From Methanosarcinaceae archaeon (GTDB lineage Archaea > Halobacteriota > Methanosarcinia > Methanosarcinales > Methanosarcinaceae), in contig JAQVBP010000005.1 in the NCBI GenBank assembly GCA_028690255.1, positions 1-35,008 on the forward strand: a DNA stretch of 35,008 nt. The letters are read 5' to 3'. Numbering within the stretch: position 1 is the first letter of the stretch; every line of letters starts with the position of its first letter. The position numbers and the translations under genes are program-made. Shown piece by piece: positions 1 to 31,524 of this stretch. Below the pieces are notes generated by a model, which was not told the DNA's origin, ran no database searches, and saw only the letters and a program-made list of their open reading frames with translations.

Positions 1-159
1 TGAATCTCCATAGAGTAATAGAATCAAAGAATATTTTCAAATCGTTTGAATCAAAAAGACGGGGCAATAGCTGCAATGTCTACGAAAATTCGGCGAAAAA
101 ATTAAAGGGGGGTCGAAATGTAAATTTACTGCTCTTTTTTTCAGAAATTTTAAAATGGT

Positions 160-194
160 AAAATGTTATCGTTTTATTAAAACAATAACATTTT
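160..194. repeat. Imperfect 17-bp-arm palindrome aaaatgttatcgtttta-t-taaaacaataacatttt
   Basis: Read directly. The arms are reverse complements with one mismatch. AT-rich non-coding context. Confidence 0.8.
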
Positions 195-242
195 AGGATT
201 AATTACCCGTTTTTATTAGAAAGAGATAGGGGTTTAAGGTAT

Positions 243-279
243 AAAATGTTATTGTTTTACTATAAAACAATAATATAAT
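243..279. repeat. Second, more degenerate copy of the same palindrome (aaaatgttattgtttta-cta-taaaacaataat...)
   Basis: Core arms ttattgtttta (249-259) and taaaacaataa (263-273). Starts ~83 bp after palindrome 1. Confidence 0.7.
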
Positions 280-283
280 TTAT

Positions 284-349
284 TTATCAGATCTGTTTTT
301 TCTTTATTTTTCTTGTTTTCAAAAATAGATAGCAATTACTAATTATAAC
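284..349 (+). repeat. Dispersed copy of the iteron-like unit ttatcagatctgttttttctttatttttcttgttttcaa-aatagatagcaattactaattataac
   Basis: Near-identical to 503-568 (1 mismatch by eye). Confidence 0.85.
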
Positions 350-480
350 TCACATTTCGAATCTTGGCATTTATGTACAAATCCATGACACAAATATGCC
401 ATTTTATCTGATACACTATCACTAAAATGGCCAATATGCAGGAATTATTATCTCATATTGGCAGTGGGTCGAAATGTCGA

Positions 481-622
481 TTATAACAAAATTAGTAATT
501 CTTTATCAGATCTGTTTTTTCTTTATTTTTCTTGTTTTCAAGAATAGATAGCAATTACTAATTATAACAAAATTAGTAATTCTTTATCAGATCTGTTTTT
601 TCTTTATTTTTCTTGTTTTCAA
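481..622 (+). repeat. Tandem direct repeat, 82-bp unit, about 1.7 copies (481-562, then 563-622 truncated)
   Basis: ttataacaaaattagtaattctttatcagatctgttttttctttatttttcttgttttcaa occurs at both 481 and 563. The second copy breaks off into acctgcattccgcattt. Confidence 0.85.
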
Positions 623-880
623 ACCTGCATTCCGCATTTATATAAATTACTGCATGGTTAACCTCAGATCCATTTTATGACTTTTAGGAACTATTCAGCC
701 TATCAAAATTAGTTGATTGATATTGATTTTGACTAAACTGATGTGCTGATCATTTACTGAAGCAAAATAAAAAACGTGATCAATCCAACAATTAAAGAGA
801 ATCAATTCATAGAAATTTGTCCATTGAATCTTAATAAAGATGGCTATTGATGCAGGTTTGCCTTGGCTGAATATTTATGC

Positions 881-1732
881 TTATTTAATCAATAAATTAA
901 ATCCTGAATTATTTGATTCCCATCTATTAATTGAAGCATAAAGATCTGTTCCAGAAAAGCATAAAAAATCAAAGGAAAGTCTCAAATTTCTTGATACAAT
1001 ATCATTATCTATAAATTTACTTGTATGGTTCCCAAATATTTCTTTTAGGCCAATTGTCAATATTTCTATCAAATCGTGTCCTTGACAAATTTGCCAAGGG
1101 TTGTGTGTGGATTTAATTGAACAAATCATAGATTTAATCTTTTTATAATCCAAAGTATAATTTTTTGGATTCTTTTCCAAATTATATAATAAACTACTAC
1201 AGTCAACCATCAGATTATTTTTGTCAGTAAACTGGCAAAAATCAAGTTTTTTGAAATCTATATACATATTATATTTTGAAGAGACCCATCTGACATACCC
1301 TATTTTTATACCACTCTGTATTAATATTTCACGTATTGGTTTGCCAAGTCTAATTAGTTTATTTTCATTTGCATATTCAGAGAGCATCTTTTCAAGTGCA
1401 TCTGATGAAAGAATCATTGTGTCAGTATCATGCGTATCTGTTATCAGCAAGTTTTTACTATATTTTTCCGGTTTGACTCCATCAACATGCCAAAAATCTG
1501 CGTCGACAATTGCTAACACGCCACAAACACCACTATGTTCAAGAATTAAAAGCGCATCGATAGCAGACGTTTTACATTTTGCATAGACCACATTACAAGT
1601 ATTGTCATCAATAAAACATTTGTAAACTCTTGAGTCTGTACTACCTTCAACTATTAGTATAGCTTGAGTAGAGTCCCTCCTACTCATCCTAGCTTTGTTG
1701 GCAATCCGGTTGGGAGTAATGTATCTTTTCAT
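881..1732 (-). CDS. DUF4435/TOPRIM-like putative nuclease (PARIS AriB-like / OLD-nuclease-like)
   Basis: 283-aa ORF. TOPRIM-type acidic motifs ILIVEGSTDSRVY (E29) and LAIVDADF (DxD), then ITDTHDTD. Starts 6 nt after the stop of the upstream ATPase gene. Very AT-rich. Confidence 0.6.
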   Translation of the reverse strand: MKRYITPNRIANKARMSRRDSTQAILIVEGSTDSRVYKCFIDDNTCNVVYAKCKTSAIDALLILEHSGVCGVLAIVDADFWHVDGVKPEKYSKNLLITDTHDTDTMILSSDALEKMLSEYANENKLIRLGKPIREILIQSGIKIGYVRWVSSKYNMYIDFKKLDFCQFTDKNNLMVDCSSLLYNLEKNPKNYTLDYKKIKSMICSIKSTHNPWQICQGHDLIEILTIGLKEIFGNHTSKFIDNDIVSRNLRLSFDFLCFSGTDLYASINRWESNNSGFNLLIK

Positions 1733-1738
1733 AGAAGT

Positions 1739-3067
1739 TCACCTAAATGAAGTATCTAACTTAACTGTTAAGTCCCACCGATCTTCTATGATATCTGGAG
1801 AATGAGTTGCTATAAGGACGTCAAGGTCTACAAGTTCAAGAACTTTCTGTAGATCACTTAAAAAGTCTTTTTGCCATCCTATGTGCAAAGAAATTTCTGG
1901 CTCATCAATTAAGATTAATGATTTGTGTTTTATTCTAAACAATAATTCATAATACAAAATTAGTTCATGTTGTTCCCCTGAAGATAGATTTGTTGGTAGA
2001 ATTTTTTTATTGTTTGATGTGGTAAAAATAAACCCCGTATTTTTATTTATGGATATACTTTTGTTGGCAAATCTACTGTTAATTATATTAACAAAAAGAT
2101 ATATTTTATCTCTAAGTTCATTGAATACATCCAATTTTTTCTTTACATCTTCAATATAAACAGAAAGAACGTGAGCATTTTCCTCGGTCAATTCTTGAAA
2201 CTCTCTGAAGTTAATTTCTTTCTCTTCATCAAGAAGGCCTGTTTTAATCAAATTAGTTCTTCTTTCTTCAAGGCTTGATAAGTATTCTTTAAGCTTGTTG
2301 ATATTTACATCATCTTTTGTCTTGGCTAATCGAATAGGAAACGTTCTATCTAAGGATTGAGAGAGACTTGCATATTCAGCAAGCTTTTTTTGAATAGCAT
2401 CTGATAATTCCCTTGAATAATCCATAACCGTATTCTCAATGGGTGCACCTTTCGAATATTCAAAATCCCTTTTCAAGCGCTTAAATGTAAACAACCTTTG
2501 AGTTGTTATAAAGTTTATATTGATCGATTTTTTTATATTAATAAACCACTCCTTCATGTTCTTTTCATCAAAATTTAGACCAAATTTCCACATAATTTCA
2601 TCAGATGAATATATTTCATTTTCGGGATCATAAATCCACTTATCATCATCTATTCTTATAAGTCCTGGAACTGTTCTAATTAATGAAAAAATATCCTTTC
2701 TATCATCAATTCTTTTTTTAATTATTACATTTTTATTTTTATTGTTGCTGTGTGATAGTATAAGTGAAATTTCATTTTTTGGAGTGTCATGTTGAAAACA
2801 ATTATTTTCACTTGAACTCTTCTTATTAACAATCTTTTTTAAACAAATAGTATTTCCATCATCAAAACTCACGGAAAATTCATCAAATGGAATGTCATAG
2901 AATATTTTATAATCTAAACAAAAAAGAGATTTTATCATTTCTAAAATAATGGTTTTTCCAACCCCATTTTGACCATGAATAATTGTTATATGATTCTCCA
3001 TGTTTAAATTTATTTCATGATCGTAAAGTTCGAAAAGATTTTTAATATTTACCTTCTTAACTCTCAT
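1739..3067 (-). CDS. ABC/SMC-type ATPase (AAA_15/AAA_21-like, PARIS AriA-like)
   Basis: 442 aa. N-terminal IKNLFELY..., Walker A GQNGVGKT, Q-loop FITTQR, ABC signature LSSGEQ, Walker B LILIDEPEISLH, H-loop IATHSP. Charged coiled-coil-like insert between the two lobes. Confidence 0.8.
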   Translation of the reverse strand: MRVKKVNIKNLFELYDHEINLNMENHITIIHGQNGVGKTIILEMIKSLFCLDYKIFYDIPFDEFSVSFDDGNTICLKKIVNKKSSSENNCFQHDTPKNEISLILSHSNNKNKNVIIKKRIDDRKDIFSLIRTVPGLIRIDDDKWIYDPENEIYSSDEIMWKFGLNFDEKNMKEWFINIKKSININFITTQRLFTFKRLKRDFEYSKGAPIENTVMDYSRELSDAIQKKLAEYASLSQSLDRTFPIRLAKTKDDVNINKLKEYLSSLEERRTNLIKTGLLDEEKEINFREFQELTEENAHVLSVYIEDVKKKLDVFNELRDKIYLFVNIINSRFANKSISINKNTGFIFTTSNNKKILPTNLSSGEQHELILYYELLFRIKHKSLILIDEPEISLHIGWQKDFLSDLQKVLELVDLDVLIATHSPDIIEDRWDLTVKLDTSFR

Positions 3068-3413
3068 AATATTACCTAATCCTATAGATTCTGAATATAT
3101 GATATAAGTCTTTTCTTATGTATAATTAATACCAGTAGTGGAAATTATCAATATGAGTACGAGTTACGCACTTGAGATGTAAAACCAAGCACATTAGAGC
3201 TTGTAGTAAATATTGTGCTTTAGACAGTTTGATGATTCATGCTACTGGTTTTCTGTTCAACTGCGTAAGTCCTATATGAGATAATAAATTATTTTTAATT
3301 ATAATCCTGTATCTCCCTGTCGTCTCCTTCGGAATTAGCAGAGAGGGTTTTAAAAAGTTCATAGTCCTCATCTGTGAGAGGTAATTCTTATTTTTTTCAT
3401 GATTTCACCTATA

Positions 3414-4727
3414 TTAACATTGATAAGATAAATTAGAAGCGGCTCTAAAGATCATATCAATCTTTTCTTTTTCTTTCGGCTTATCCTTCGGTTTTGGCTT
3501 CAAAGCATTCTTAACCTTCAAATAGGCCCCTGCAAAGAAGGCTTTAGAGTCTGATCTGTTAGAATGCCTGTAGCCGGTAACTTTGCTTATTGTGCCTTTC
3601 AGGAAATGTTTTTTAGGGCGGTTCTCGTCGGGCTTTTCTTTTTTCGGTTGAAGAGATTGGGAGCAAGACCAATTATGAAAACCGAAGGCCCAAAACATGT
3701 AACCGGATTCAGAGGTCATGCTTTTTTCTAAGTATTTTCGGAGATAATCATAAGGAGGGGTTCCGGCTGCATCCTCGGGACAACTGCCGGACCAGATCCA
3801 GGAAGAGCCCTGACGCCTGATAGTGTGAATGTCCAGGATCTCACCGCCTCCGTACCCCCTCCAGGCGTATTGTATCACACTTTTGGGCATGAGCCAGTTA
3901 ATCCCGAAAAAGGTTATATGGAAATGGACCCGCCCGTTTTTCTGAAACTCCCGGACGGCGATATATTCGGCGTGGTCCGGGAGATGATAACGTATGTAAT
4001 CAAGGAATTTTTCAAGGGCTTCATTTGTTTTATAATTGCATTCAGCTAAGGAACCGTACCCATAGGGCCGGGCTGTGAGGGTAAGTTCAGAGGCTACGCA
4101 GTGCCTCCGACTGGCTGCACCCCAGGCAAACCGGAAGCCCTGTATATTGGCGTCTTGTCGGTCCCGAGCCGTAAAACGGGTTTTATATGGCATTGTGTAG
4201 TTTTCAGCAAAAACCGGGCTACCTGTGGGAGAATAAGCCATATCAAGGCGTTCTGTTTTGGCCCGCTTGCAATAGTTGTTATATTCGGTTATTACCTCTT
4301 CTTCTACGTTATTGTGCTTGATCCAGTCGGAGCCCTCATAATGACCAAAAGAGTTTATACGGTTGAGCTTTAGAAGGGCTTTAAGCCGTTCAGGGCCTGC
4401 CCGCTTAAGGTGACTTAATGGTTCATGCTGCCGCCCGCTTGCGTGTTCGGTTTTTTCGGAGTTTTGCTTATCACAGATCAAGTCTAGGGAAGAACCCGAA
4501 AAAAAAGAAGATTCTTGCCGGGGATTTGCACGGACCCACAAAATAGAATCTACGTTTTCAAAAAAATATTTAACTTTTACTTTAGAATCACGGAGATAAC
4601 GGCGTACCTTCTGATAGCCATTTCTTCCGATCAAGCCTAACCTATCCGCTATTTGTTGCATAGTTAAGGGAACGGATAAAGTCATATCCCAAATCTTAGC
4701 TTTTTGCTCTGCTGTAAGCCCTGCCAT
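3414..4727 (-). CDS. Rolling-circle replication initiator (HUH superfamily, two-Tyr type) with N-terminal HTH-like region
   Basis: 437 aa. Motif 1 ELTLTARP (aa ~214), motif 2 RVHFHITFF (HUH, aa 268-270), motif 3 YLRKYLEK (YxxKYxxK, aa 328-335). Spacing is typical of RCR Reps. Lys-rich C-terminal tail. Confidence 0.75.
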   Translation of the reverse strand: MAGLTAEQKAKIWDMTLSVPLTMQQIADRLGLIGRNGYQKVRRYLRDSKVKVKYFFENVDSILWVRANPRQESSFFSGSSLDLICDKQNSEKTEHASGRQHEPLSHLKRAGPERLKALLKLNRINSFGHYEGSDWIKHNNVEEEVITEYNNYCKRAKTERLDMAYSPTGSPVFAENYTMPYKTRFTARDRQDANIQGFRFAWGAASRRHCVASELTLTARPYGYGSLAECNYKTNEALEKFLDYIRYHLPDHAEYIAVREFQKNGRVHFHITFFGINWLMPKSVIQYAWRGYGGGEILDIHTIRRQGSSWIWSGSCPEDAAGTPPYDYLRKYLEKSMTSESGYMFWAFGFHNWSCSQSLQPKKEKPDENRPKKHFLKGTISKVTGYRHSNRSDSKAFFAGAYLKVKNALKPKPKDKPKEKEKIDMIFRAASNLSYQC

Positions 4728-4797
4728 AGAATAACCCCGTTAGGACGGTAGTAAACCCCGGTATTGTTCGGTTTTAAAAAAAATAAAAAAAATAGGC

Positions 4798-5235
4798 TTA
4801 TGCCAGGGTTCCCAGAGCTTCCGCTAAGGTGGTTTGTTTAAAATGCTTGCAGAGATCATCCAGAGAAGGACCTCTTAGCTTCCAGTATGACCATTCAAGG
4901 CCACAGTCAGGACAGGTGATAAAGACCCACTGAGGGAACGAAAAACCCCTTAGACGGTATCCGCTATCATGGTCAAAGGTCCCGAGCTCTCCGGCCAGGA
5001 GAGAAGCCCCGCAGGAACAGGTTTTAACGGGGGCTCTCTGGAGACGGTCCAGGATTTGATCTTTGATGTAAATTGCATCAAAAATGTTTTCGATACTGCT
5101 TTTTATTTTGAGGGGAGGACCTCGGGGGGGCTGGTTGTGCTGTACTTTTTTCCAGCATTCCGGACCGTACCCGCGTTGTTTGCTTAAACGGTCCTTTAAG
5201 GCCCGTCCGCATCGAAGGCAGCGATTATAAGCCAT
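4798..5235 (-). CDS. Zinc-binding protein, DUF6011-like N-terminus
   Basis: 145 aa. CLRCGRALKDRLSKQRGYGPEC matches the CxxCGRxL...S...G.GPxC pattern of DUF6011 as I recall it. Second Cys pair set CSCG...CPDC. Start overlaps the upstream stop by 1 nt (TAATG). Confidence 0.55.
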   Translation of the reverse strand: MAYNRCLRCGRALKDRLSKQRGYGPECWKKVQHNQPPRGPPLKIKSSIENIFDAIYIKDQILDRLQRAPVKTCSCGASLLAGELGTFDHDSGYRLRGFSFPQWVFITCPDCGLEWSYWKLRGPSLDDLCKHFKQTTLAEALGTLA

Positions 5236-5696
5236 TAGGCCACCCCCAGGAAATCAGAAGCCACATAGGCCCATACAACCGCCCCCCGTGGAAACTTGAA
5301 AGTAACAGGCTTGATTAATTGGATGTTTTCAAGGTCCCAGAAATAGGTTTTACCATCAACCCAATAGGAAGAGGGGGCATAATGGGACCCGGCCAGCCGG
5401 TTAAATTCAGAAGGGAAGGCGATATTATCACAGCCGCTTAATTCAGCGAATGCAATTATAGCCCCATGAACAAAACAGGAATCCGGAAGGCTAATGTTTT
5501 GACTTTTCAATACTGTTTTTACATGCCGAAGGTGTACCCTGTCCGGGTTTGTCAGGCTGGCATAGATAGCTATTTTTTGCCTTTCAAAACCTTGAGGATA
5601 GGGATAACGCCGGACCTCATACCCTTTCAGGTCCGCAGCTATAAGGCCCGCGAAGGGTTGCCGGACAGCCAGGACGGGTATTTTTTTTTCGGTCAT
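5235..5696 (-). CDS. ASCH (PUA-like) domain protein
   Basis: 153 aa. N-terminus IPVLAVRQPFAGLIAADLKGYEVRRYP resembles the ASCH beta-barrel signature (SIxQPWAxLIxxGxKxxExR). ATGA overlap with the upstream gene. Confidence 0.55.
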   Translation of the reverse strand: MTEKKIPVLAVRQPFAGLIAADLKGYEVRRYPYPQGFERQKIAIYASLTNPDRVHLRHVKTVLKSQNISLPDSCFVHGAIIAFAELSGCDNIAFPSEFNRLAGSHYAPSSYWVDGKTYFWDLENIQLIKPVTFKFPRGAVVWAYVASDFLGVA

Positions 5697-6004
5697 GCGA
5701 GAACCCCCCGGAGGGTTCCCAGGAAGGCCAGGACGAGATAAACGGAAAAGAGGACCGCCTGCCTTTGGGCTGCATGGGCTTCAATGAAAAGCTCTTTTTC
5801 TTTCAGGGACCGGGCCGCGTTGATATTTGCGAAGACTAAAATAAGGTTTCCAGGAAGCCAAACGAGATTAGCCAGGCCAGCCTTTCCGAAGGAGACGCAG
5901 GCCGCGCCAGCGATTCCCGCGAATACTGCCAGGTCCATAAAGCCCAGGCGGGGAAGGTGTAGCCGGACCGCCCGGAAGGAAGGGGATAAAGCCGGGTGAT
6001 TCAC
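5693..6004 (-). CDS. Small hydrophobic (membrane) protein
   Basis: 103 aa, GTG start, 2-3 hydrophobic stretches. GTGA/ATGA overlaps on both sides place it in the coupled operon. Confidence 0.45.
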   Translation of the reverse strand: MNHPALSPSFRAVRLHLPRLGFMDLAVFAGIAGAACVSFGKAGLANLVWLPGNLILVFANINAARSLKEKELFIEAHAAQRQAVLFSVYLVLAFLGTLRGVLA

Positions 6005-6162
6005 AGGAACAGACCCCCGCAGCTATAAATTTTTTCGAAAAATTCATCTACTTCAAAAAAGGGGGTTCTTGGGTGGCGTTTGTTGTAAGCCTTCATTGTT
6101 GCCTTAACCGCGTATTTATCATACTCGGAAAGGGTCGCATAGCTTGACGTTCGGGGGTTCAT
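6001..6162 (-). CDS. Small ORF (53 aa), below the ORF-track cutoff, hypothetical
   Basis: Hand translation: MNPRTSSYATLSEYDKYAVKATMKAYNKRHPRTPFFEVDEFFEKIYSCGGLFL. The ATG overlaps the upstream stop (ATGA at 6159-6162). Its TGA overlaps the GTG of the next gene. Confidence 0.4.
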   Translation of the reverse strand: MNPRTSSYATLSEYDKYAVKATMKAYNKRHPRTPFFEVDEFFEKIYSCGGLFL

Positions 6163-6446
6163 ACCTTCACCCCCTGCCTCTTTGAAGCAATTTTAAAGAA
6201 TTTGGGGTTTGCTCCCCCCCGGATACGAATAACTTTTTTTTCTGCCTGCTGGAACTGAGCCCCGCAGATCTCACAGCGATAACCGGGCTTTCTTGTCCTG
6301 TGACGAATCCGAACGGTTCCGCAGAAAGGGCAGCATTTTAAAGACCGGGTCTTTATCTCCAACATTGGCCTAAAAGAGCCTGAATTATTTAGAACATTTA
6401 TACAGCCCTGAGCAGAGCTAACGCTATTTGAAGTTGTGTTTCTCAT
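6159..6446 (-). CDS. Zinc-ribbon protein, first gene of the coupled operon
   Basis: 95 aa with CCPFCG...(13 aa)...CEICG, a four-Cys ribbon. Basic C-terminus. Confidence 0.45.
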   Translation of the reverse strand: MRNTTSNSVSSAQGCINVLNNSGSFRPMLEIKTRSLKCCPFCGTVRIRHRTRKPGYRCEICGAQFQQAEKKVIRIRGGANPKFFKIASKRQGVKV

Positions 6447-6725
6447 GTCGTTTAGTCCTATTCAATAACTGCCCGAAACCGGCAAAGTTTCAGACGTTAA
6501 AAAAAGGGATACTCTTCAACTATATAAAAGTTAAGAAAAGCAATGTTTATAAACAGAGACGTTTCATTAACATAATGACCTTTGTTAAGGCCGACGGCAA
6601 ACGGTTTGAGGTCGAAATCCGCGAGCGGGAAACTATTTTTAAACGTTTAGTCCGCCCCGTTCAAGATTGACACTTATCTTACAAGGTCAGTACCGTTCTA
6701 AGGGTTCGAACCCATAGAAATTAAC

Positions 6726-6750
6726 TCGGGTTCGAATCCCGGTCCGGGCG
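6726..6750 (+). other. tRNA 3' fragment (T-arm plus 3' acceptor strand), candidate att site / element boundary
   Basis: tcggg-TTCGAAT-cccgg followed by tccgggc-g. The matching 5' acceptor strand (gcccgga) is absent upstream. A second T-arm-like gggttcgaaccc sits at ~6702-6713. Confidence 0.5.
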
Positions 6751-6913
6751 CTTAATTTTTTTGAATTTTTAACTTTGTGAATATTTTTTACTGGTTTTGA
6801 GAAGTAATAAGCTTTAATTGAAGATTTCTTTGATTTGAGATTCCATATTATCTTTTTCAGGTTTATTTCGGGACAATAAGAACTTTATCCGTTAATGAGG
6901 GATATTACCCTTC

Positions 6914-21285: not shown

Positions 21286-22725
21286 TTATTGTATTTCTTT
21301 TGCCTTGAAGAGAGTCCAGGGCTGAGAAGGTCTGTCTTTCAGGTACCCGTCAAGGTGCTTCCACTGGATATGTTCTTTCAGGAACTCTGAGGCCTCAAAA
21401 GGAATGCCGGAAGAATTGCCCCAGCGCCCCCAGAAAGCAAACTCCTTTGCAAGCCTGCTGTCCATCACTTTGCCGTCCACGGCTCCCCTGGGCTGGAAGG
21501 GAAGAGGTCTCCCCGGCTGGCTCATAGATTCCCTGGCATCCAGTTCATAGTGCCCGTCAACCGTGCGGGAACAGGGATTATTGCGCTTTTTCAGGTAGAC
21601 ATCGTAGTGGTCCGCAATAATTTTCTTAGCGCTTTCCACGTTTATTCTGCCCCTGTACTCTTCCATCAACTCCTCCAGTCGGACCTGCCTGGCCCCCTGG
21701 TGTCTCCTTATGTCGGCATATCCCGTGTTCGAACATTCCAGGTTCCGGATGCGAGGGTCCAGAGGAGCATTAAATCCTATGAAATACCCCTCCTTTTTCC
21801 TGGAAACATTGTTGTATTCAAGTCCGAGTTCAAAGCGCAGGATTTCCCCCGAATTTATATCCCCCAGGTACCAGGTATTCGCATACCCCCCGTTATTCCC
21901 CTGCTTCATGAATTCCACAAACCTGTCAGGGCTCTCCGAGTACTGCATTGCCTTTCTTACCCGGAAAAACTCCGGAAGCTGGTCAGGGTCGTAACAGTTA
22001 AACCCTCCGATGGTCGTTTCGGTGCCCATCAACCCTGCCCCGGTTACAAAAAAGTCGGTCATGCTATGGATATAGCCGGGATAGGCTTGCATGAAAATGC
22101 GCTGGCCCCGGGCAGGCTTGATGTCAAGAACCAGGTTGCAGAATTGTCCGGTTTCAAAATTGCTCCAGGTGTTGTGGGCCATGACGATTTCGGGCCCGTC
22201 CTTTTCTTCGGCCCTTTCCCCCCCTCTTCCTTCAGACCTTTCTCCGGCCGTCGCCCCGCCCGTATAAGGGGCCGTGGCAATGAAAGCACTGCAGTGGTCC
22301 TTTCTGTTCCGTATGGACTCCGAAAATTTACCCTCTTTCCGGAGCGGCCACCAGTAACCCGTAAGTTCTTCATATCCGTTCCAGGCCAGCACTTCCTCCC
22401 AGGTGATTTTCACTCCGGCTTCCCTTGCCCCGGCCGCAATTCCCTGCATTTCGGCAAGAAATTCCTCGTCGATTCCAGAACCCGAAGGAGAAAGCCATAA
22501 ATCCCTGGCGGCCTCAACAAAAAACTCCCATTTTTTCCCGGTGTCCCAGTAGGTAAGGTACTCAATACTCCTCATAATTTCTTTAATTTCCGGGGCCATA
22601 AGGTAGCCGTGCTGAAACCCTCTCTCATAAGGACCTCCTTCGATATGAAGGCAGACCCAACCATTTATTTCATCCCTGAAACCTTCTTTATAGGCTGTGA
22701 TAGGACAGATTGTAAGCCCTCCCAA
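21286..22725 (-). CDS. Ntn-hydrolase-like protein, tentatively peptidase C45 / acyltransferase family
   Basis: 479 aa. Candidate nucleophile context KDHCSAFIA. Gly/Glu/Arg low-complexity insert. TTG start lies exactly at the GC/AT composition break, with no ATG until codon 43. Confidence 0.5.
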   Translation of the reverse strand: MGGLTICPITAYKEGFRDEINGWVCLHIEGGPYERGFQHGYLMAPEIKEIMRSIEYLTYWDTGKKWEFFVEAARDLWLSPSGSGIDEEFLAEMQGIAAGAREAGVKITWEEVLAWNGYEELTGYWWPLRKEGKFSESIRNRKDHCSAFIATAPYTGGATAGERSEGRGGERAEEKDGPEIVMAHNTWSNFETGQFCNLVLDIKPARGQRIFMQAYPGYIHSMTDFFVTGAGLMGTETTIGGFNCYDPDQLPEFFRVRKAMQYSESPDRFVEFMKQGNNGGYANTWYLGDINSGEILRFELGLEYNNVSRKKEGYFIGFNAPLDPRIRNLECSNTGYADIRRHQGARQVRLEELMEEYRGRINVESAKKIIADHYDVYLKKRNNPCSRTVDGHYELDARESMSQPGRPLPFQPRGAVDGKVMDSRLAKEFAFWGRWGNSSGIPFEASEFLKEHIQWKHLDGYLKDRPSQPWTLFKAKEIQ

Positions 22726-22926
22726 TTATTCAAAATTTAGATATGTAACAGGGAATCTTAATATACAATACTACATAATTGTTTTCAAAAGTTATGTACA
22801 GAAATATATAATTTGGAACTTATATTGATTGAATGGTATCAATAAAATTATGTGAATAACAAAAACAAAAAATAAAAACCGATACAGTACATTAACGTTA
22901 AATAATTAGAGAGAAAGAGGATATTT

Positions 22927-23721
22927 ATGGGATATGGAAATCAACAATATATTTATCCAGATTTAAAAGATCGAATCACATCTGTATTAATTAGCAGCAA
23001 AGAACCTTACGAAGGATACTGGGAGGAAAGTGAAAACTTCATACTAGATTTAATAAAAAAGCACATCAGCAAAGATATAATAAATAAAGAAAAATCTCTA
23101 TTAGACGCTGGTTGTGGGGAAGGAAGATTAACAATTTACTTTAGTGACTATTTTGAACGAATACTTGCAATAGACCCTGATAGGTCTCGACTAGATATTG
23201 CTATAAAAGAAACAAAACGACTTAAAATATCTAATAAAATTGACTTTGACAGTGTTCCTATAGAAGAGATCAATGAAGACGAAAAATTTGACGTAATACT
23301 TTGCAGTCATGTATTCCAACATGTTCAGACATCTCTTATCCCAAAGATTATAGAGAAATTAAGCATATTGATGAAAAAACCAGGATTATTATTTGTAACT
23401 ACATGTCATTCCACAAAAGGAGATGACTACTTCGTAAAAAATTATTTAGATGATTTTAATTTTGTAGAAGAAACTATTGATCAAGATTCTTTTAATTCTC
23501 TTGTTTTTGGAGTTAATCAATTACCTACGCACCTCTTTTCCCGTGGAAGCATTGAAGAGCTTCTTAAAAAGTCAGGGTTTAAAATTATTGATTATAAAGT
23601 TTTTCATATAATTGAAGAAGATTTTGGAACAAAACAAAATAGAGATATAACAGTTAATCAATCCCCCTCATTACAAAATAAATATGGGAGAGATGTATTT
23701 ATTGCCGCAAAAAAAGAGTGA
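22927..23721 (+). CDS. Class I SAM-dependent methyltransferase (not of DNA-MTase type)
   Basis: 264 aa. Motif I LLDAGCGEGRLT, post-I ILAIDPD, motif III/IV region DVILCSHVFQHV. No (D/N)PP(Y/F/W) or PCQ motif. Confidence 0.8.
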   Translation: MGYGNQQYIYPDLKDRITSVLISSKEPYEGYWEESENFILDLIKKHISKDIINKEKSLLDAGCGEGRLTIYFSDYFERILAIDPDRSRLDIAIKETKRLKISNKIDFDSVPIEEINEDEKFDVILCSHVFQHVQTSLIPKIIEKLSILMKKPGLLFVTTCHSTKGDDYFVKNYLDDFNFVEETIDQDSFNSLVFGVNQLPTHLFSRGSIEELLKKSGFKIIDYKVFHIIEEDFGTKQNRDITVNQSPSLQNKYGRDVFIAAKKE

Positions 23722-25345
23722 TGATAACAAGTCAAAATCAATCGAAATAAAAGAGATTCTTGGAGATGAAATAGAAGAAAATATTTATTTTTCAGATGTA
23801 TATATAGGATTTTTGTACACATTCAATATAGAAATTAAAAACATTTTATCAAAAAAAGAAATACAGTGTTTGCTGAAGGATAAAGGAATAAATGCTGAAT
23901 GGAATGAGAATGAAGAATATACAAAAGTTTTTGAAAGTGCAGAAGTTTTTTTTAAAGCCCCAGTGAGTGTTTTTACAAAACCACTTCGATTTAAAATCGG
24001 TTATTTATATTTTAAATGTCCACATATAAAGTACAAAGAAAATATAGAATGTATGTTTGATAAGCCTACAAAAATCGAATTATTTTTAACAATATACCCA
24101 AAACTTAAAAAAGCGATTTTACTTTTCAATATAAAACTAGAAAGTTGTGACTCGAATGACATTATTTTTCTCCGACATTGTTTCATGGGAGATAGACAAG
24201 AATTAATCCTTGACATTGAGCGATCTAATCCAAAAATATGCAAAACCTGTAACAAATTTAAAATCGATTGTGGCATAAGCAAACACTATTATAAGGAATT
24301 TAAAATTGACTGTGATATATATAATTACAGTGAAGAATTCAAAATTTATTTAGATATATGCGAACATTATAAAAAATATAAAAGATATTGTGAGAGATAT
24401 AAAACCTGTAAAAAAGTTAAAATTGATTGTTATATAAATTTTATTAAATCAGCATTTAGTGAAGTGAACGAAGAAAAATCAGATCAATCCGAAAAAAAAA
24501 TAGATAAAACTGATACGGAAAAATCGGAAGAAGAAAACACCTCATGCCCCATTGTTGTAAAAACAAACATAATAGAAATTCGGAACATATCCAACTTAAA
24601 TTATTTAAACGTAGATAATTGTGAAGATGATTTATTAAGCAGATATCCCAGACAGATATACAGTCTTTTGGTGGGAGACGAAGGATGGAAGTTTGTTCCA
24701 CGGAAACTGGCAATATCCAGAATAAAAAAAAGATGGGGGACCAGAGGATTTTTTACTGTATTCACATTCAATAACTCAGTTCTAGTTTTCAATTTTACAA
24801 AAACGAACCATTATAAAATATATGGATATACTCAAAAAGAATTAAGCAAAAGATTCAGACAAAAAACCGACGAATATTTTACCTTATGTTATGAAATTGC
24901 AGGCCTTGAACATGGTCCACTAACGAACCTTGAAATTGCATCGGTTATTCGATGTTCTCTTGATACTCTTTTTGAAAAACTTGATGATAAAAAATCAGAG
25001 TTGAATTATGAAAATGAAGATAATATAGTAAAAAAATTTCGTTCATGCATTTTCAATCATAAAAAAATCGAAAACATTAACCGCATGAAAAACGCAGTAA
25101 ACACAACTCTACTTGACCTAAATAAAATGAACAAAATATGGGAATTGGGGGAGCTACTTAACATGTTTAGTGAAAGTCTGTCAATATCGAAAGACATACT
25201 CAAGCTTGAGAAGAAATCGAATTTCATAGAAACCAAAATAATGACAGAGTATCAGAAAAATAACAATCTGATTTTAAGTGTATTAACATTACTTACAGTT
25301 ATCCTAACCTTTTTAGGGATTATTTGTGCAGTATATGAAATATAG
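23684..25345 (+). CDS. Hypothetical 553-aa protein. It has a Cys-containing FKIDC repeats, a coiled-coil-like C-terminal region and a terminal TM helix. Possible CorA-superfamily-like membrane effector.
   Basis: Long AT-rich ORF overlapping the methyltransferase gene by 29-38 nt. C-terminus NLILSVLTLLTVILTFLGIICAVYEI. Ends in TAG. Confidence 0.7.
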   Translation: MGEMYLLPQKKSDDNKSKSIEIKEILGDEIEENIYFSDVYIGFLYTFNIEIKNILSKKEIQCLLKDKGINAEWNENEEYTKVFESAEVFFKAPVSVFTKPLRFKIGYLYFKCPHIKYKENIECMFDKPTKIELFLTIYPKLKKAILLFNIKLESCDSNDIIFLRHCFMGDRQELILDIERSNPKICKTCNKFKIDCGISKHYYKEFKIDCDIYNYSEEFKIYLDICEHYKKYKRYCERYKTCKKVKIDCYINFIKSAFSEVNEEKSDQSEKKIDKTDTEKSEEENTSCPIVVKTNIIEIRNISNLNYLNVDNCEDDLLSRYPRQIYSLLVGDEGWKFVPRKLAISRIKKRWGTRGFFTVFTFNNSVLVFNFTKTNHYKIYGYTQKELSKRFRQKTDEYFTLCYEIAGLEHGPLTNLEIASVIRCSLDTLFEKLDDKKSELNYENEDNIVKKFRSCIFNHKKIENINRMKNAVNTTLLDLNKMNKIWELGELLNMFSESLSISKDILKLEKKSNFIETKIMTEYQKNNNLILSVLTLLTVILTFLGIICAVYEI

Positions 25346-25425
25346 TCACGCTTGCATTCGATGCGACAAAAATTACATGATGGTTTATATTTTGTTGTCG
25401 CATTACTCATGCTCGTGACTATATT
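25340..25425. repeat. Long imperfect inverted repeat / stem-loop beginning at the TAG codon
   Basis: Outer arms atatagtcacg / cgtgactatat. Inner arms atgcgacaaaa / ttttgt(t)gtcgcat. The unpaired middle forms an internal loop. Confidence 0.7.
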
Positions 25426-25453
25426 ATTACCAAATATAGCAATAATTCACTGA
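25343..25453 (+). other. In-frame UAG plus a 35-codon extension encoding a second hydrophobic helix (readthrough/Pyl candidate, or a recent nonsense mutation)
   Basis: Hand translation after TAG: SRLHSMRQKLHDGLYFVVALLMLVTILLPNIAIIH, then TGA at 25451-25453. Confidence 0.4.
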
Positions 25454-25535
25454 TTCCGTGACAATTTAATATTTATTATACACCAATTTCTTTGAAAAAG
25501 AAACATAATCCAGTAGACTTCTCTTCTCTGCCCTC

Positions 25536-27967: not shown

Positions 27968-30751
27968 TTATTCGGATTTTCCAGCGCAGGCTTCCTGTAC
28001 AAGCTCAAGCCCGCGGGCCAGGGCAACTTCGATCTTTGAGGGGTCGGTCCCTCCGCCCATGGCAAGGCCCGGCTTTCCACCGCCGCCGCCCCCGACGATT
28101 ATTGACATTTCTCTGACAAGGTCCCCGGCTTTGACCCCGCGGGCCACGGCCGTTTTGCCTGCCGCTGCCACGAGTTTGACTCCCCCTACCTCGCTTGCAA
28201 GAAGGGTTACCACGTCCCCGGCCTTTATGAGTTCGGTTGCGATCTTGTGGAGTTCCTGGGAATCCGCACCTGCAATGAGTTCCGAGACCACTTTCAGGCC
28301 GTCGATTTCTTTTGCATTTTCGAGCAATTGATAAACCCTTGCCCGGGCCAGTTCTTCCTTAAGACGCTCGTTTTCTTTCTTGAGGTCCTTCCATTCTCCG
28401 AAGAAACGCTCCACACTTGCAGGGAGCTGGTCCTGGGGAATACTGAGGGTCTTTGAGGCTTCAACCAGGAGGGCTTCCGTCTTCTGCATGGCAAAGACCG
28501 CCGCGTCTCCTGCCGCAAATTCAAGCCTCTCCACCCCGTCCTGAATCCTCTCTGTCCTCAGGATTTTGATGGGGCCCACAATGCCCGTGCTCGTGCAGTG
28601 CGTCCCGGCACAGGCTTCCACATCGTCGCCCACCTTGACGACCCTGATGAGGTTTCCTGGAGGAACTCCGCCCTGGTAGAGCCCGAAACCGTATTCCTGC
28701 TCGGCTTCGGTTCTCGGCATCCATTCGGTCAGGACCCGCCTGTTTTCCATGACCGTCCGGTTGGCAAGAAGCTCGATCTGCCTGAGTTCGTCAGGGGAGA
28801 TGTGCTTGTAATGGGAAAGGTCCAGCCTTGAATGGTCTTCAAACTTCTGGGCCCCTGCCTGCCAGATATGGTTTCCGAGGACTTTCCTGGCGGCGTCGTT
28901 TACGATGTGGGTTGCGGTATGATGTCTTGCAAGGGCCATCCTGCGCTCCACGTCCACCTTGCCCACAATCATGTCGCCTTTGCTAATCTCCAGCTCGCCT
29001 TCTGAAAGTTCCACTTTGTGCATGATTACCCCGGCATGGACCTGGACGTCCTTTACCCGGTAAACCGCATCCCCGGAACTGATGGTCCCGGTGTCTGCAG
29101 GCTGGCCCCCGCCTTCCGCATAGAAGAAGGTGCTGTCAAGCACGATGTTCCTGTCAAAAACGTCAAGGACAACGGCCTCGAACTCCATGCGGGTGGGCTC
29201 GTCGTAGAAGAGGCGTTTGGTCTTCGGAAGATGAGTGAGTCGTTCTGCATAGGGGAATTCCTCGACTTCCTTTTCCTCGGCCTTGTTCTGTCTTTCTCCG
29301 ATAAGGGAATAAAAGTTGTCCGGGAACTCGACTTCCACCCCGAGCTCGGCCGCGACGTCCTTTGCGGTCTCGGGAGGGATTCCGTGACTGTCGTAGAGTT
29401 CGGTTAACTGAGAGAGGGGGATCTTTCCGCCGCTTTCCTTGAAATGCTTTGCGGATTTCTGGATGATTCTCCGGCCCCGCTCAAGGGTGGTGTTGAACTT
29501 CTCTTCTTCCGACAGAAGGATGTCCTGTATAACAGGGAAGTTTTCCCTGAACTCCGGATACTCGGGCATGTTTTTGATGTGTATGTCCACGATTTCCGAA
29601 AGGGGGGTCCGGATGTCCAGGTCCTTCATCATGCGCATGGTCCTTCTCAGGACCAGCCGGGCAAGATATCCGCCTTTGACATTTGAGGGAATGACCCCGT
29701 CGGCCAGCATGAAGGTCAGGCAACGGGTATGATCCGTGATTGCATAGACCTTTTCAACGGGCTCCATGATGGAGGAGAGTTTGTCCACGGTCATGCCGAT
29801 GCTCGAAGCCACCTGTTTTCTGAGGCCAAAGAGGTTGGCCTTTTCGCTAACGTCCATAAGTCCCGAAAGTCTTGCGTTCTGGGCCAGGATGTTTGCATAT
29901 TCGGGATCGTCGAGTTCGTGTTCGAGCCCTGCAAGCCCCATGAGTTCGTTTACGATTTCAGGGAAGATTGCATCGTAGATCGTGGGTGAGCCTTTTGAGG
30001 CCCAGACGAAACGCTCAAGCCCGTAGCCCGTATCCACGATGTAGTTGTCCATTCTGGAGTAGTTTTCACCCTTGATCGGGATGTCCCCGTTTTTGTCCTG
30101 TTTCAGGTTCATGAAAACAAGAGTTGCGAGTTCAAGCCCGTTTACGATAGTCTCGACGCACGCACCTGCGTTTCCTCCGCCTGCCCAGGGCTCTTCCTTG
30201 TAAGTTACGGCAAAGGGGTCGAGTTTGAGGGAATTGAGGAGCTCGTCACAGAGTTCAAGGGTTCTGTCCTTCCAGTAGATCTCTTTACCTTTGTTGTTGA
30301 AGGCGTGGTGAGCCATCATCTCAAAGGTTGTCAGGTGTCTGCCACTCCTTCCTACCGAGTCAAGGTCATTTAAGCGGATACAGGGCTGAGAGATTGTGAG
30401 GGGGTTGGCCGGAGGTGGGACCTGTCCCGAGGTTACAAAAGGCTGGAAGTCCGCAATGGAGGCAATTGTAAGGTAAATATCGTCCCTCCAGCGAGCAATC
30501 ACCGGGTAGCGGTCGATTCTGGTGTGATCATGGGCCTCGAAAAAGGAAAGGTAATACTCACGCATTTCTGCTATATTGAATTCCCGGGAAAAAGCCGGGT
30601 TTCCAATAAAAGAATAGGGGTCGCATGGAGCGTCTCCGCAGGTCTCTCGGTCAAGATCCCGGGTCCAGAAGAATGCACCACACTTGGAGCACTGCTTCCG
30701 GACAAAACCGTTATCTTTGAAAAAATCAATTTGATACTCGTCTTGAAGCAT
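27968..30751 (-). CDS. alaS: Alanine--tRNA ligase (archaeal type)
   Basis: 927 aa. N-terminal zinc-knuckle-like CSKCG...CGDAPC, class II core, editing-domain HHTATH and CAGTHC motifs, C-terminal GGGGGGKP (DHHA1). Confidence 0.97.
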   Translation of the reverse strand: MLQDEYQIDFFKDNGFVRKQCSKCGAFFWTRDLDRETCGDAPCDPYSFIGNPAFSREFNIAEMREYYLSFFEAHDHTRIDRYPVIARWRDDIYLTIASIADFQPFVTSGQVPPPANPLTISQPCIRLNDLDSVGRSGRHLTTFEMMAHHAFNNKGKEIYWKDRTLELCDELLNSLKLDPFAVTYKEEPWAGGGNAGACVETIVNGLELATLVFMNLKQDKNGDIPIKGENYSRMDNYIVDTGYGLERFVWASKGSPTIYDAIFPEIVNELMGLAGLEHELDDPEYANILAQNARLSGLMDVSEKANLFGLRKQVASSIGMTVDKLSSIMEPVEKVYAITDHTRCLTFMLADGVIPSNVKGGYLARLVLRRTMRMMKDLDIRTPLSEIVDIHIKNMPEYPEFRENFPVIQDILLSEEEKFNTTLERGRRIIQKSAKHFKESGGKIPLSQLTELYDSHGIPPETAKDVAAELGVEVEFPDNFYSLIGERQNKAEEKEVEEFPYAERLTHLPKTKRLFYDEPTRMEFEAVVLDVFDRNIVLDSTFFYAEGGGQPADTGTISSGDAVYRVKDVQVHAGVIMHKVELSEGELEISKGDMIVGKVDVERRMALARHHTATHIVNDAARKVLGNHIWQAGAQKFEDHSRLDLSHYKHISPDELRQIELLANRTVMENRRVLTEWMPRTEAEQEYGFGLYQGGVPPGNLIRVVKVGDDVEACAGTHCTSTGIVGPIKILRTERIQDGVERLEFAAGDAAVFAMQKTEALLVEASKTLSIPQDQLPASVERFFGEWKDLKKENERLKEELARARVYQLLENAKEIDGLKVVSELIAGADSQELHKIATELIKAGDVVTLLASEVGGVKLVAAAGKTAVARGVKAGDLVREMSIIVGGGGGGKPGLAMGGGTDPSKIEVALARGLELVQEACAGKSE

Positions 30752-31278
30752 AATTATCTCTCCGGATGCGTGGGGGCGGACTCTGCCTGATTTTCAGAGA
30801 AAAGAAAAAGAAAGCAGAAAACCCCCGCTCAACCGTTATATGGGTTTACTTAGATAGAGCATATACAAATTCATCAAGTGCAATCATTGAGTTTAACATT
30901 AAATCCAGTCATTAAGCCTGTTTAAATACAGTGAATAGTCTTAGACATTATGAACATAAAATGAATTATATAAGGTGTTGCATTGGAAAAGTGCTGACAA
31001 AACAAGATTTTGCAGCAATAACAAATTAAAGCGGACTTTAAAATATAAAGATTATTCTGTGAACCGCACCCCCATATCAGCCTTTGGCTGCGGAGGAATT
31101 GCTGTTTGAAATCAAATGATTCTATAGAAAAACCTAATTCTATTTTAAAAGGCTATTTTTTGACTGGATTTTTCAATACTGCATAAATTTAGATGTAAAT
31201 TTCCAACTTTTTCGACATTACCTGATTATAAAAACCATACATTATAAATTTATTGTAAAAATCGCAAATTAAAAAAAG

Positions 31279-31306
31279 GAAATTCCTTCAACTGGAAGGA
31301 AATTTC
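31279..31306 (-). terminator. Candidate stem-loop terminator flanked by A7/A8 runs (T-runs on the minus strand)
   Basis: gaaattccttc-aactg-gaagga(a)atttc, an 11-bp stem with one bulge. Downstream of the YhbY-like gene on the minus strand. Archaeal termination mainly needs T-tracts, so this is tentative. Confidence 0.3.
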
Positions 31307-31421
31307 AAAAAAAAGTTACAATAAAAGGAGAAAGGCGCCATCATACCCCTGTTTTCACTTTATAGTGCCACCACCTCTCAGCCAGAAGGAACACCCAAGA
31401 AAATTCCCTGGAAAAGCCGGG

Positions 31422-31493
31422 AAAAACATGAAAAACATGAAAAACATGAAAAACATGAAAAACATGAAAAACATGAAAAACATGAAAAACATG
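31422..31493. repeat. 9-bp tandem repeat aaaaacatg x8, intergenic
   Basis: Read directly. Generates the artefactual HVF/NMK repeat ORFs on both strands. Confidence 0.95.
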
Positions 31494-31524
31494 CTGAGTG
31501 CGAGGGGAAGGGGCCCCCGGAAAA

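What the first reader, a model, noticed from the sequence alone, without database searches (positions are those of the whole stretch)
881..3067. PARIS-like two-gene module (ABC ATPase plus DUF4435/TOPRIM protein) as cargo of an archaeal mobile element
Two tightly linked minus-strand genes are separated by a 6-nt spacer.
- The 442-aa protein has the full ABC/SMC motif set: GQNGVGKT, TTQR, LSSGEQ, LILIDEPE, ATHSP. A coiled-coil-like insert splits the two lobes.
- The 283-aa protein has TOPRIM-type acidic motifs: IVEGSTD, and IVDAD.

This pairing and these sizes match the AriA/AriB architecture of PARIS. PARIS is described in E. coli satellite and prophage hotspots, where an ABC ATPase scaffold sequesters a DUF4435 TOPRIM nuclease until a phage anti-restriction protein triggers its release.

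Here the module sits directly downstream of a rolling-circle Rep on an integrated element in a methanogen-type genome. It is far more AT-rich than its surroundings. An archaeal, element-borne version would be unusual, and its trigger and target are unknown.
Basis: partly seen in the sequence, partly recalled or inferred. Interest (0 to 1): 0.75.

Follow-up and report, generated by a model that had tools for sequence, protein, structure and literature searches.

The report
PARIS defence pair in methanogen element
Two adjacent genes in a Methanosarcina-family archaeon are a genuine but distant relative of the bacterial PARIS anti-virus system (an ATPase that holds a tRNA-cutting nuclease in check), carried next to the replication gene of an integrated mobile element; this is a correct identification, but of a kind already catalogued in archaea.

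Summary
Two minus-strand ORFs (1739-3067, 442 aa; 881-1732, 283 aa) lie 6 nt apart in a 29% GC block within a ~49% GC Methanosarcinaceae chromosome.

- **ATPase:** it matches solved E. coli AriA end to end (E 1.3e-14), and AriA is its best PADLOC hit.
- **Small protein:** it misses Pfam DUF4435 itself, but 31 of 36 relatives hit it. PADLOC AriB is its only hit (5.9e-19). A pLDDT 93.5 model matches only the AriB chains of the two PARIS cryo-EM complexes. All five published AriB Toprim acidic residues have acidic counterparts.
- **Pairing:** the pair is conserved in order and strand in 81 of 81 loci and co-evolves (r = 0.92). The window copy is sister to Methanolobus pairs in a mostly archaeal subclade.
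- **Element:** the flanking element core (3312-6752) is 95% identical to another copy. Homology stops at a tRNA-like att fragment and just past Rep, where that copy carries different cargo.

The PARIS-like cargo reading is supported. It is not unusual, though: PARIS was already reported in archaeal genomes and in an archaeal provirus. I rate it a new member of a known kind, with modest interest. Its trigger and RNA target in archaea remain untested.

The parts
1739..3067 (-). ariA-like ABC/SMC-type ATPase, 442 aa. Walker A is at 32-39 (K38), Q-loop at 188-191, signature at 361-366, Walker B at 384-391 (D388, E389) and H-loop at 420-424.
   Evidence: Pfam AAA_15 5.8e-20 over the full length and AAA_21 7.1e-13. 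PADLOC AriA 4.8e-25, plus a full-length AriA model at 3.3e-20. PDB AriA 8ux9_B/8v45_A at 1.3e-14, aligned 5-438 against 8-440; the next best is PtuA at 6e-6.
881..1732 (-). ariB-like DUF4435/Toprim nuclease, 283 aa. Predicted catalytic residues are E29, D33, D77, D79 and D104, with a conserved C-terminal GHD motif at 218-220.
   Evidence: PADLOC AriB is the only hit, at 5.9e-19, covering 3-231 of 236 profile positions. 31 of 36 subfamily members hit Pfam DUF4435. The AF2 model has pLDDT 93.5. Foldseek finds only AriB chains 8ux9_A and 8v46_D as significant. Invariant residues are and the residue mapping.
1739..1744 (-). Shine-Dalgarno-like AGGTGA overlapping the ariA stop codon, 6 nt before the ariB ATG. 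This suggests likely translational coupling.
   Evidence: Read directly from the sequence. Its function is inferred.
3068..3311 (-). AT-rich region upstream of ariA (28.7% GC), the presumed promoter region. It contains a TATA-like stretch ~27-40 nt before the ATG and one arm (3271-3287) of a 17-nt inverted repeat.
   Evidence: Sequence; GC; inverted repeat. The promoter role is inferred only.
3312..6752 (-). Core of an integrated rolling-circle-Rep element. It holds Rep (3414-4727), a DUF6011 protein (4798-5235), small ORFs of 153, 103 and 53 aa, and a 95-aa zinc-ribbon ORF (6159-6446).
   Evidence: 95.4% nucleotide identity to L085 over exactly these coordinates. Rep homologs occur in Methanosarcina chromosomes, one with an integrase ~9 kb downstream of Rep. 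Rep also resembles Thermococcus plasmid and pleolipovirus Reps.
6728..6751 (+). tRNA 3'-half-like sequence (T-arm plus acceptor strand) at the element border, a probable att remnant.
   Evidence: Sequence. The same 24-mer sits at the homology border in L085 (792-815). There is no intact tRNA in the window and no Rfam hit, so the tRNA origin is inferred from the sequence pattern.
1..880 (.). AT-rich (27.5% GC) region downstream of ariB with no ORF of 50 aa or more. It contains 87-nt direct repeats and a MITE-like block (347-482). It continues the low-GC block to the window edge.

Best explanation
This is a functional-looking PARIS (AriA-AriB) abortive-infection module of a distant, mostly archaeal subclade. 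It was acquired horizontally and sits in the variable region just downstream of the rolling-circle Rep gene of an integrated element in a Methanosarcinaceae chromosome.

The mechanism is inferred by homology with E. coli PARIS:
1. AriA, an ABC ATPase with a coiled-coil middle, forms an oligomeric scaffold that holds AriB monomers inactive.
2. A protein from an invading virus binds AriA in an ATP-dependent way and releases AriB.
3. AriB dimerises, and its Toprim site (E29, D33, D77, D79, D104) cuts a host tRNA.
4. Translation stops and the infection aborts.

Shown here: homology of both proteins to AriA and AriB, conserved catalytic motifs, strict gene pairing and co-evolution, and the mobile-element context. 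Inferred: complex formation, the trigger, the RNA target and the defence phenotype.
For: **AriA**
- It aligns end to end with solved AriA at 1.3e-14, far ahead of PtuA.
- It passes the published PARIS cut-offs for AAA_15 (72.7 bits against 32) and AAA_21 (49.7 against 27).
- K38 and E389 align with the essential K39 and E393.

**AriB**
- PADLOC AriB is its only hit.
- 31 of 36 relatives carry DUF4435.
- A pLDDT 93.5 model matches only AriB chains, at E 1.5e-4 and 8.8e-4, prob 1.00, full length.
- E26, D30, D88, E90 and E122 of E. coli AriB align with E29, D33, D77, D79 and D104. The first four are invariant in the subfamily.

**Pair**
- The same order and strand, nearly abutting, in 81 of 81 loci.
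- A-B distance correlation r = 0.92, and matching tree positions.
- An SD-like AGGTGA overlaps the ariA stop.

**Mobility and defence context**
- The pair has lower GC than its flanks in 62 of 76 loci.
- It is scattered between unrelated housekeeping genes in other archaea.
- A homologous pair sits between cI and int of a P2-like Yersinia phage.
- In the window it replaces other cargo present in a 95% identical element.
Against: - The window protein itself gets no Pfam DUF4435 hit, even at E<=10.
- Neither it nor its family profile reaches PDB AriB by sequence.
- The profile-profile match to E. coli-type AriB is weak (E 0.01, Toprim core only).
- The structural TM-score is 0.45-0.48 with rmsd 8.3 A, so the relationship is distant.
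- The AriB residues that salt-bridge to AriA in E. coli (R28, R31) are not conserved (S31, S34).
- 29% GC in a 49% GC host may limit expression.
- No archaeal PARIS has been tested experimentally.
- An archaeal OLD-family ATPase (Cran1) has a non-defence role.
Confidence: 0.8

Rival explanations
1. The pair acts mainly as a toxin-antitoxin-type addiction module that stabilises the integrated Rep element, with AriB as toxin and AriA as antitoxin, rather than as an antiviral sensor.
For: One group that solved PARIS structures describes it as a toxin-antitoxin system, and AriA is deposited as 'AriA antitoxin'. The module lies inside or next to a mobile element. No viral trigger is known for archaea.
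Against: In other archaea the same pair stands alone between housekeeping genes with no element to stabilise. A 95% identical element persists without it. The two roles are also not mutually exclusive.
Confidence: 0.1
2. The pair belongs to a different ABC-ATPase/nuclease system (Septu PtuAB, Gabija, class 1-3 OLD, an RloB-type system) or to a housekeeping RecF/RecN/Rad50-like repair function.
For: The ATPase also scores against many PtuA models (3.6e-21 and weaker), GajA, and weakly Rad50 and RecF. Four of 36 relatives of the small protein weakly touch OLD-like_TOPRIM.
Against: - AriA is the top hit in both PADLOC and the PDB, and the only one aligned end to end.
- The partner has no HNH (PtuB) or helicase (GajB) features. 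Its only PADLOC hit is AriB, with no RloB hit.
- The fold search returns AriB only.
- ATPase and Toprim are on separate adjacent genes, which defines class 4 OLD, i.e. PARIS.
- The distribution is sporadic and AT-skewed, unlike a housekeeping gene.
Confidence: 0.04
3. The module is a decaying or silent remnant: freshly transferred AT-rich DNA that is not expressed or not functional in this host.
For: There is an extreme GC mismatch (29% against 49%). The adjacent 100-aa ORF of the element is truncated at the junction. The downstream 880 nt are repeat-rich and ORF-free.
Against: Both ORFs are intact and full length relative to their homologs. All catalytic and ATP-binding residues are kept. The SD-like site is intact. 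An identical protein pair was assembled independently from run SRR22315505.
Confidence: 0.06

Closest known systems
PARIS (AriA/AriB) of E. coli B185 P4-like satellite; class 4 OLD-family system; PDB 8UX9, 8V45-8V49
   Same: - A two-gene ariA-then-ariB operon of similar sizes (442 and 283 aa against 464 and ~310 aa).
- AriA aligns end to end, with conserved Walker A, Walker B, signature and H-loop motifs.
- AriB has the same overall fold and all five Toprim acidic positions.
- It is carried on a mobile element and has lower GC than its host.
   Different: - AriB has no detectable pairwise sequence similarity (13-15% identity in the structural alignment), and TM is only ~0.45-0.48.
- The AriA-contact arginines R28 and R31 are not conserved.
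- The host is an archaeon, so the Ocr trigger and the E. coli tRNA-Lys target cannot be assumed.
- The carrier is a rolling-circle-Rep integrative element, not a P4 or P2 hotspot.
DUF4435 + AAA_15 pairs of Methanolobus, Methanococcoides, ANME-2 and filamentous cyanobacteria (annotated 'DUF4435 domain-containing protein')
   Same: Same subfamily: 37-54% identity for AriB and 38-52% for AriA. Gene order and spacing are identical. The window copy is sister to the Methanolobus pairs.
   Different: Those copies sit between housekeeping genes rather than next to a Rep gene. The window copy is far more AT-rich (29% against 35-46%).
ATPase + 292-aa partner between cI and int of Yersinia P2-like phage vB_YenM_31.17
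   Same: A homologous pair (AriA 39.5% identity, AriB 24% at E 6e-21) carried as accessory cargo of a temperate mobile element.
   Different: The host is bacterial and the carrier is a tailed phage. The genes overlap rather than being 6 nt apart.
Septu (PtuA/PtuB) and Gabija (GajA/GajB)
   Same: They have related AAA_15/21 ABC ATPases.
   Different: The partner proteins are an HNH nuclease or a UvrD helicase, and GajA fuses the Toprim domain to the ATPase. None of this is seen here.

Membership tests
PARIS (AriA/AriB) | ATPase gene passing Pfam AAA_15 (>=32 bits) or AAA_21 (>=27 bits), the published detection rule (Rousset 2022) | tested here: met
   AAA_15 72.7 bits and AAA_21 49.7 bits. The rule is quoted.
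PARIS (AriA/AriB) | Adjacent partner passing Pfam DUF4435 (PF14491, >=27 bits) | tested here: inconclusive
   The window protein has no PF14491 hit, even at E<=10. However, 31 of 36 subfamily members at 36-64% identity do hit it (best 5.7e-22), and the PADLOC AriB model scores 67.1 bits at 5.9e-19.
PARIS (AriA/AriB) | The two genes are adjacent, co-oriented, ariA first, and co-evolve | tested here: met
   6-nt spacer. 81 of 81 loci keep the arrangement. Distance correlation r = 0.92 and matching NJ placement.
PARIS (AriA/AriB) | AriA homologous to solved AriA over its whole length, with an intact Walker A lysine and Walker B glutamate (K39, E393) | tested here: met
   8ux9_B at 1.3e-14, aligned 5-438 against 8-440. 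K38 and E389 align with K39 and E393.
PARIS (AriA/AriB) | AriB fold (Toprim plus DUF4435 helical domain) | tested here: met
   The pLDDT 93.5 model has only two significant PDB matches, both AriB chains (E 1.5e-4 and 8.8e-4, prob 1.00, 314-325 aligned columns). TM is modest at 0.45-0.48.
PARIS (AriA/AriB) | Toprim metal-binding acidic residues (E26, D30, D88, E90, E122 in E. coli AriB) | tested here: met
   They align with E29, D33, D77, D79 and D104. E29, D33, D77 and D79 are invariant in 36 sequences. Position 104 is D here, and an acidic E in the family consensus printed. The underlying profile alignment is weak (E 0.01).
PARIS (AriA/AriB) | AriA hexamer sequesters AriB, and a viral trigger releases it in an ATP-dependent way | not testable with these tools
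   No complex prediction tool was available. The single-sequence AriA model failed (pLDDT 34).
PARIS (AriA/AriB) | Released AriB cleaves host tRNA and arrests translation, giving an antiviral phenotype | not testable with these tools
   This needs experiments.
Septu / Gabija / RloB-type / class 1-3 OLD | Partner is an HNH nuclease (PtuB), a UvrD helicase (GajB) or RloB, or the Toprim domain is fused to the ATPase | tested here: not met
   The small protein hits only AriB in PADLOC and nothing in Pfam. The ATPase ORF ends at the H-loop region with no Toprim domain.
tRNA-integrating archaeal integrative element with rolling-circle Rep | Rep of the HUH/RCR type, a defined border at a tRNA-derived att site, a second copy elsewhere, and an integrase | tested here: inconclusive
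   Rep hits PF23343 at 1.1e-10 and resembles pTP2 and pleolipovirus Reps. The border with a tRNA-like 24-mer is shared with a 95% identical copy. There is no integrase in the window: a relative has one ~9 kb past Rep, beyond the window edge. No intact tRNA was found.

The most novel reading that the evidence does not exclude
This mostly archaeal PARIS subclade (Methanosarcinales, ANME-2, Thermoplasmata) has diverged so far from E. coli PARIS that its AriA senses a different class of archaeal-virus protein. The AriB-AriA contact residues are changed and Pfam DUF4435 no longer detects this copy. Its AriB may cut a different RNA, for example an archaeal tRNA with archaea-specific modifications, or rRNA. 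That would make it the first abortive-infection RNase system testable in genetically tractable Methanosarcina. A further possibility is that the cassette moves with help from the flanking MITE-like sequence.
Probability: 0.2. Interest if true: 0.55.

Novelty: new member of a known kind. Interest (0 to 1): 0.3.

Why it matters
PARIS has been dissected only in E. coli. Nothing is known about what triggers it or what it cuts in archaea, whose viruses and tRNA modifications differ. This locus gives a compact, intact archaeal PARIS from the Methanosarcina family, where genetics exists, sitting on a defined mobile element with a near-identical PARIS-free sister copy as a natural control.

It also shows a practical point. 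The current Pfam DUF4435 model misses this protein and its closest Methanolobus relatives, so Pfam-only censuses undercount archaeal PARIS. Beyond that it does not change the picture: archaeal and provirus-borne PARIS systems are already recorded.

Tried and rejected
- **Direct Pfam DUF4435 hit for the 283-aa protein:** none, even at E<=10. This was resolved through relatives, PADLOC and structure.
- **Sequence and profile searches of the PDB for AriB:** no AriB hit, only a faint RNase M5 Toprim match at E 0.36.
- **hhalign of the family against E. coli-type AriB:** weak (E 0.01-0.019). I used it only for motif mapping.
- **Single-sequence AlphaFold of AriA:** unusable at pLDDT 34, so the coiled-coil insert is not shown structurally.
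- **'Defence hotspot downstream of Rep' idea:** the same slot in related elements has no PADLOC hits except an orphan methyltransferase. The slot is variable but not a demonstrated defence hotspot.
- **'17-nt inverted repeats are cassette recombination sites' idea:** the repeat exceeds chance (0 of 300 shuffles). However, one arm lies inside an independently mobile MITE-like block, so the cassette-site reading is unproven.
- **Viral origin of the subfamily:** only one weak hit in IMG/VR.
- **Rfam and tRNA scans:** nothing, so the att/tRNA fragment rests on sequence pattern and border position.
- **Exact-match look-up of the neighbouring aminopeptidase,** to find an empty site: not on record.
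Full report
**Observation**

The two ORFs exist exactly where stated: 1739..3067 (-, 442 aa) and 881..1732 (-, 283 aa). The ariA stop is TGA at 1741-1739, followed by a 6-nt spacer and the ariB ATG at 1732. AriA's last codons plus its stop read AGGTGA, a Shine-Dalgarno-like sequence.

All quoted motifs are present:
- ATPase: GQNGVGKT 32-39, TTQR 188-191, LSSGEQ 361-366, LILIDEPE 384-391, ATHSP 420-424.
- Small protein: IVEGSTD 27-33 and IVDAD 75-79.

The pair is 29.2% GC, and the low-GC block runs from position 1 to ~3311. The adjacent element core is 46.7% GC and the chromosome to its right is 49.2%.

**The ATPase**

- Pfam AAA_15 matches the full length (5.8e-20, 72.7 bits), and AAA_21 matches at 7.1e-13.
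- In PADLOC the best family is AriA (4.8e-25). A second AriA model matches end to end at 3.3e-20, with many PtuA models close behind.
- Against the PDB, the best hits are the E. coli AriA chains of the PARIS structures (8ux9_B, 8v45_A; 1.3e-14), aligned 5-438 against 8-440. The next family, PtuA, reaches only 6e-6 over ~50 residues.
- In that alignment the Walker A lysine and Walker B glutamate (K38, E389) coincide with K39 and E393, which are required for PARIS function.

**The small protein**

Sequence evidence:
- It has no Pfam hit, even at E<=10, and no sequence match to PDB AriB alone or as a family profile.
- Its only PADLOC hit is AriB (5.9e-19, residues 24-237 on profile positions 3-231 of 236).
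- It has 306 homologs in the 90% clusters and 2,495 clusters at 50% identity. Nearly all listed homologs carry PF14491, and 31 of 36 aligned members hit DUF4435 when scanned (best 5.7e-22).

Structural evidence:
- An AlphaFold model built from that alignment is confident (pLDDT 93.5, pTM 0.90).
- Foldseek against 350,542 PDB chains returns only two significant matches, both AriB chains of the PARIS complexes: 8ux9_A (E 1.5e-4) and 8v46_D (8.8e-4). Both have prob 1.00 and are aligned over the full length, with TM 0.45-0.48.
- Small Toprim proteins (2fcj) follow, below significance.

Residue mapping:
- I recovered an E. coli-type AriB from a Pseudoalteromonas plasmid locus. It matches PDB AriB at 6e-70.
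- That match displays the E. coli AriB sequence. In it I confirmed the published Toprim residues E26, D30, D88, E90 and E122.
- hhalign of the family against E. coli-type AriB is weak (E 0.01, Toprim core only). It aligns those residues with E29, D33, D77, D79 and D104.
- E29, D33, D77 and D79 are invariant across the 36 sequences. D99, H101, D102, G218 and the nearly invariant H219 and D220 are also conserved.
- The protein is therefore a DUF4435/Toprim protein of the AriB type, but from a clade far from the E. coli prototype.

**The pair as a unit**

- A scan of one genome per species found 270 genomes with a relative.
- In all 80 loci fetched, plus an independent assembly of the same pair, an AriA homolog lies immediately upstream on the same strand (81 of 81).
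- AriA and AriB pairwise distances correlate (Pearson 0.92).
- Both NJ trees put the window copy next to three Methanolobus pairs. All 14 archaeal sequences (Methanolobus, Methanococcoides, Methanosarcinales, ANME-2 'Methanogaster', Thermoplasmata and other MAGs) fall in one clade with a few bacterial ones. Cyanobacterial and other bacterial pairs lie outside.
- This matches the co-evolution described for PARIS clades.
- A homologous pair occurs between cI and int of a P2-like Yersinia phage.
- The pair has lower GC than its flanks in 62 of 76 loci (mean -7.4 points).
- In other archaea it sits between unrelated housekeeping genes: mutS, leuB/nrpR, gyrA/cdc6. This is the pattern of a horizontally moving accessory cassette.

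**Host and element**

Host:
- The window encodes PurP-type DUF1246/DUF1297, FilR1, AlaRS, FeoB and HerA.
- AlaRS is 82% identical to that of Methanosarcina mazei, so the host is a Methanosarcinaceae methanogen.

Rep:
- Rep (3414-4727) hits REP_ORF2-G2P.
- It has homologs annotated as rolling-circle proteins in Methanosarcina chromosomes.
- It resembles the Reps of Thermococcus plasmid pTP2 and of pleolipoviruses HRPV-1, -2 and -6.

Second copy and borders:
- Window 3312-6752 is 95.4% identical to a contig of another assembly (L085).
- Homology stops at 6752, right after a tRNA 3'-half-like 24-mer (6728-6751) that also sits at the border in L085.
- Homology also stops at 3312, inside a 100-aa ORF that is intact in L085 but truncated here.
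- Beyond that point L085 carries different AT-rich cargo.
- A relative in M. acetivorans C2A has an integrase ~9 kb past Rep. The window, which ends 3.4 kb past Rep, probably lacks the distal end of the element.
- PARIS therefore occupies a variable region next to Rep. Whether it is internal cargo or an island that replaced the distal part cannot be decided from the window.
- The same slot in relatives holds no recognisable defence genes apart from an orphan methyltransferase. I do not call it a defence hotspot.

**Mechanism**

By homology with E. coli PARIS, the expected sequence is:
1. AriA assembles into a scaffold that keeps AriB monomeric and inactive.
2. A viral protein binds AriA in an ATP-dependent way and frees AriB.
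3. AriB dimerises and cleaves tRNA, which stops translation.

Only the homology, motifs and gene pairing are shown here. Assembly, trigger, target and phenotype are inferred. The AriB arginines that contact AriA in E. coli (R28, R31) are S31 and S34 here, so interface details may differ.

**Rivals**

- A mainly addictive toxin-antitoxin role for the element is possible and not exclusive of defence.
- Membership of Septu, Gabija, RloB or housekeeping SMC-like systems is contradicted.
- A silent remnant is unlikely given the intact ORFs and motifs and an identical pair in run SRR22315505.

**Novelty**

- Rousset et al. [quoted passage not shown]
- A 2024 survey reports PARIS in an archaeal provirus.
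- NCBI already names the Methanolobus homologs as DUF4435 proteins.
- The finding is therefore a correct call of a new member of a known kind.
- Points of modest interest: the current Pfam model misses this copy; the subclade is mostly archaeal; and the host family is genetically tractable, with a PARIS-free sister element available as a control.

Noticed in passing
window 347-482 (also L085 5184-5315; L093 709-844): A ~134-nt block with perfect 9-nt terminal inverted repeats (ACATTTCGA / TCGAAATGT) and a strong hairpin fold (-34 to -37 kcal/mol). It occurs at 91-98% identity in three unrelated contexts and in both orientations. One copy is inserted within a 9-nt tandem-repeat tract between host genes on a metagenome contig. 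It behaves like a MITE-like mini-element or a small structured RNA gene, and it has no Rfam match.
   Followed up: partly
window 445-461 and 3271-3287: A 17-nt inverted repeat, TTATTATCTCATAT[T/A]GG (16/17 matched), brackets the PARIS block near both homology breakpoints. None of 300 shuffles reached this match, and the motif occurs nowhere else in the window. One arm lies inside the MITE-like block. It may be a recombination scar or a fragment of a second MITE copy.
   Followed up: partly
window 263-349, 482-568, 563-649: Three copies of an ~87-nt direct repeat (71-91% identical) lie in the ORF-free AT-rich region downstream of ariB. The MITE-like block splits the array. Their function (iterons, terminator duplications or other) is unknown.
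   Followed up: no
window 3312-3400 (-): The 100-aa ORF that follows Rep in the sister element L085 (4159-4461, cysteine-rich C-terminus) is frameshifted and truncated here after ~10 codons, at the junction with the AT-rich PARIS block.
   Followed up: partly
window 6696-6719 and 6728-6751: A T-arm-like palindrome (GGGTTCGAACCC) lies just before the tRNA 3'-half-like att fragment. This may be two stacked tRNA remnants from successive integrations. There is no intact tRNA anywhere in the 35-kb window.
   Followed up: partly
window 22500-25500: A second strongly AT-rich island (26-31% GC). It encodes a SAM-dependent methyltransferase (22927-23721) overlapping a 553-aa protein (23684-25345) that has no Pfam or PADLOC hit. 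This is probably another horizontally acquired block.
   Followed up: partly
window 6159-6446 (-): A 95-aa zinc-ribbon ORF at the att-proximal end of the element has a sub-threshold match to the Lar restriction-alleviation family (5.5e-5, 23.8 bits against a cut-off of 28.6). If real, the element would carry both an anti-restriction gene and PARIS, a system that in E. coli senses anti-restriction proteins.
   Followed up: no
window 30500-32000: A third low-GC stretch (~37% GC) lies between AlaRS and FeoB. It was not examined.
   Followed up: no
L086, L087, L088: More distant relatives of the Rep element carry a resolvase, an N6/N4 DNA methyltransferase and large Laminin_G_3 or CarboxypepD_reg proteins. 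Together with Rep's similarity to pleolipovirus Reps, this hints that some members are proviruses rather than plasmids.
   Followed up: no
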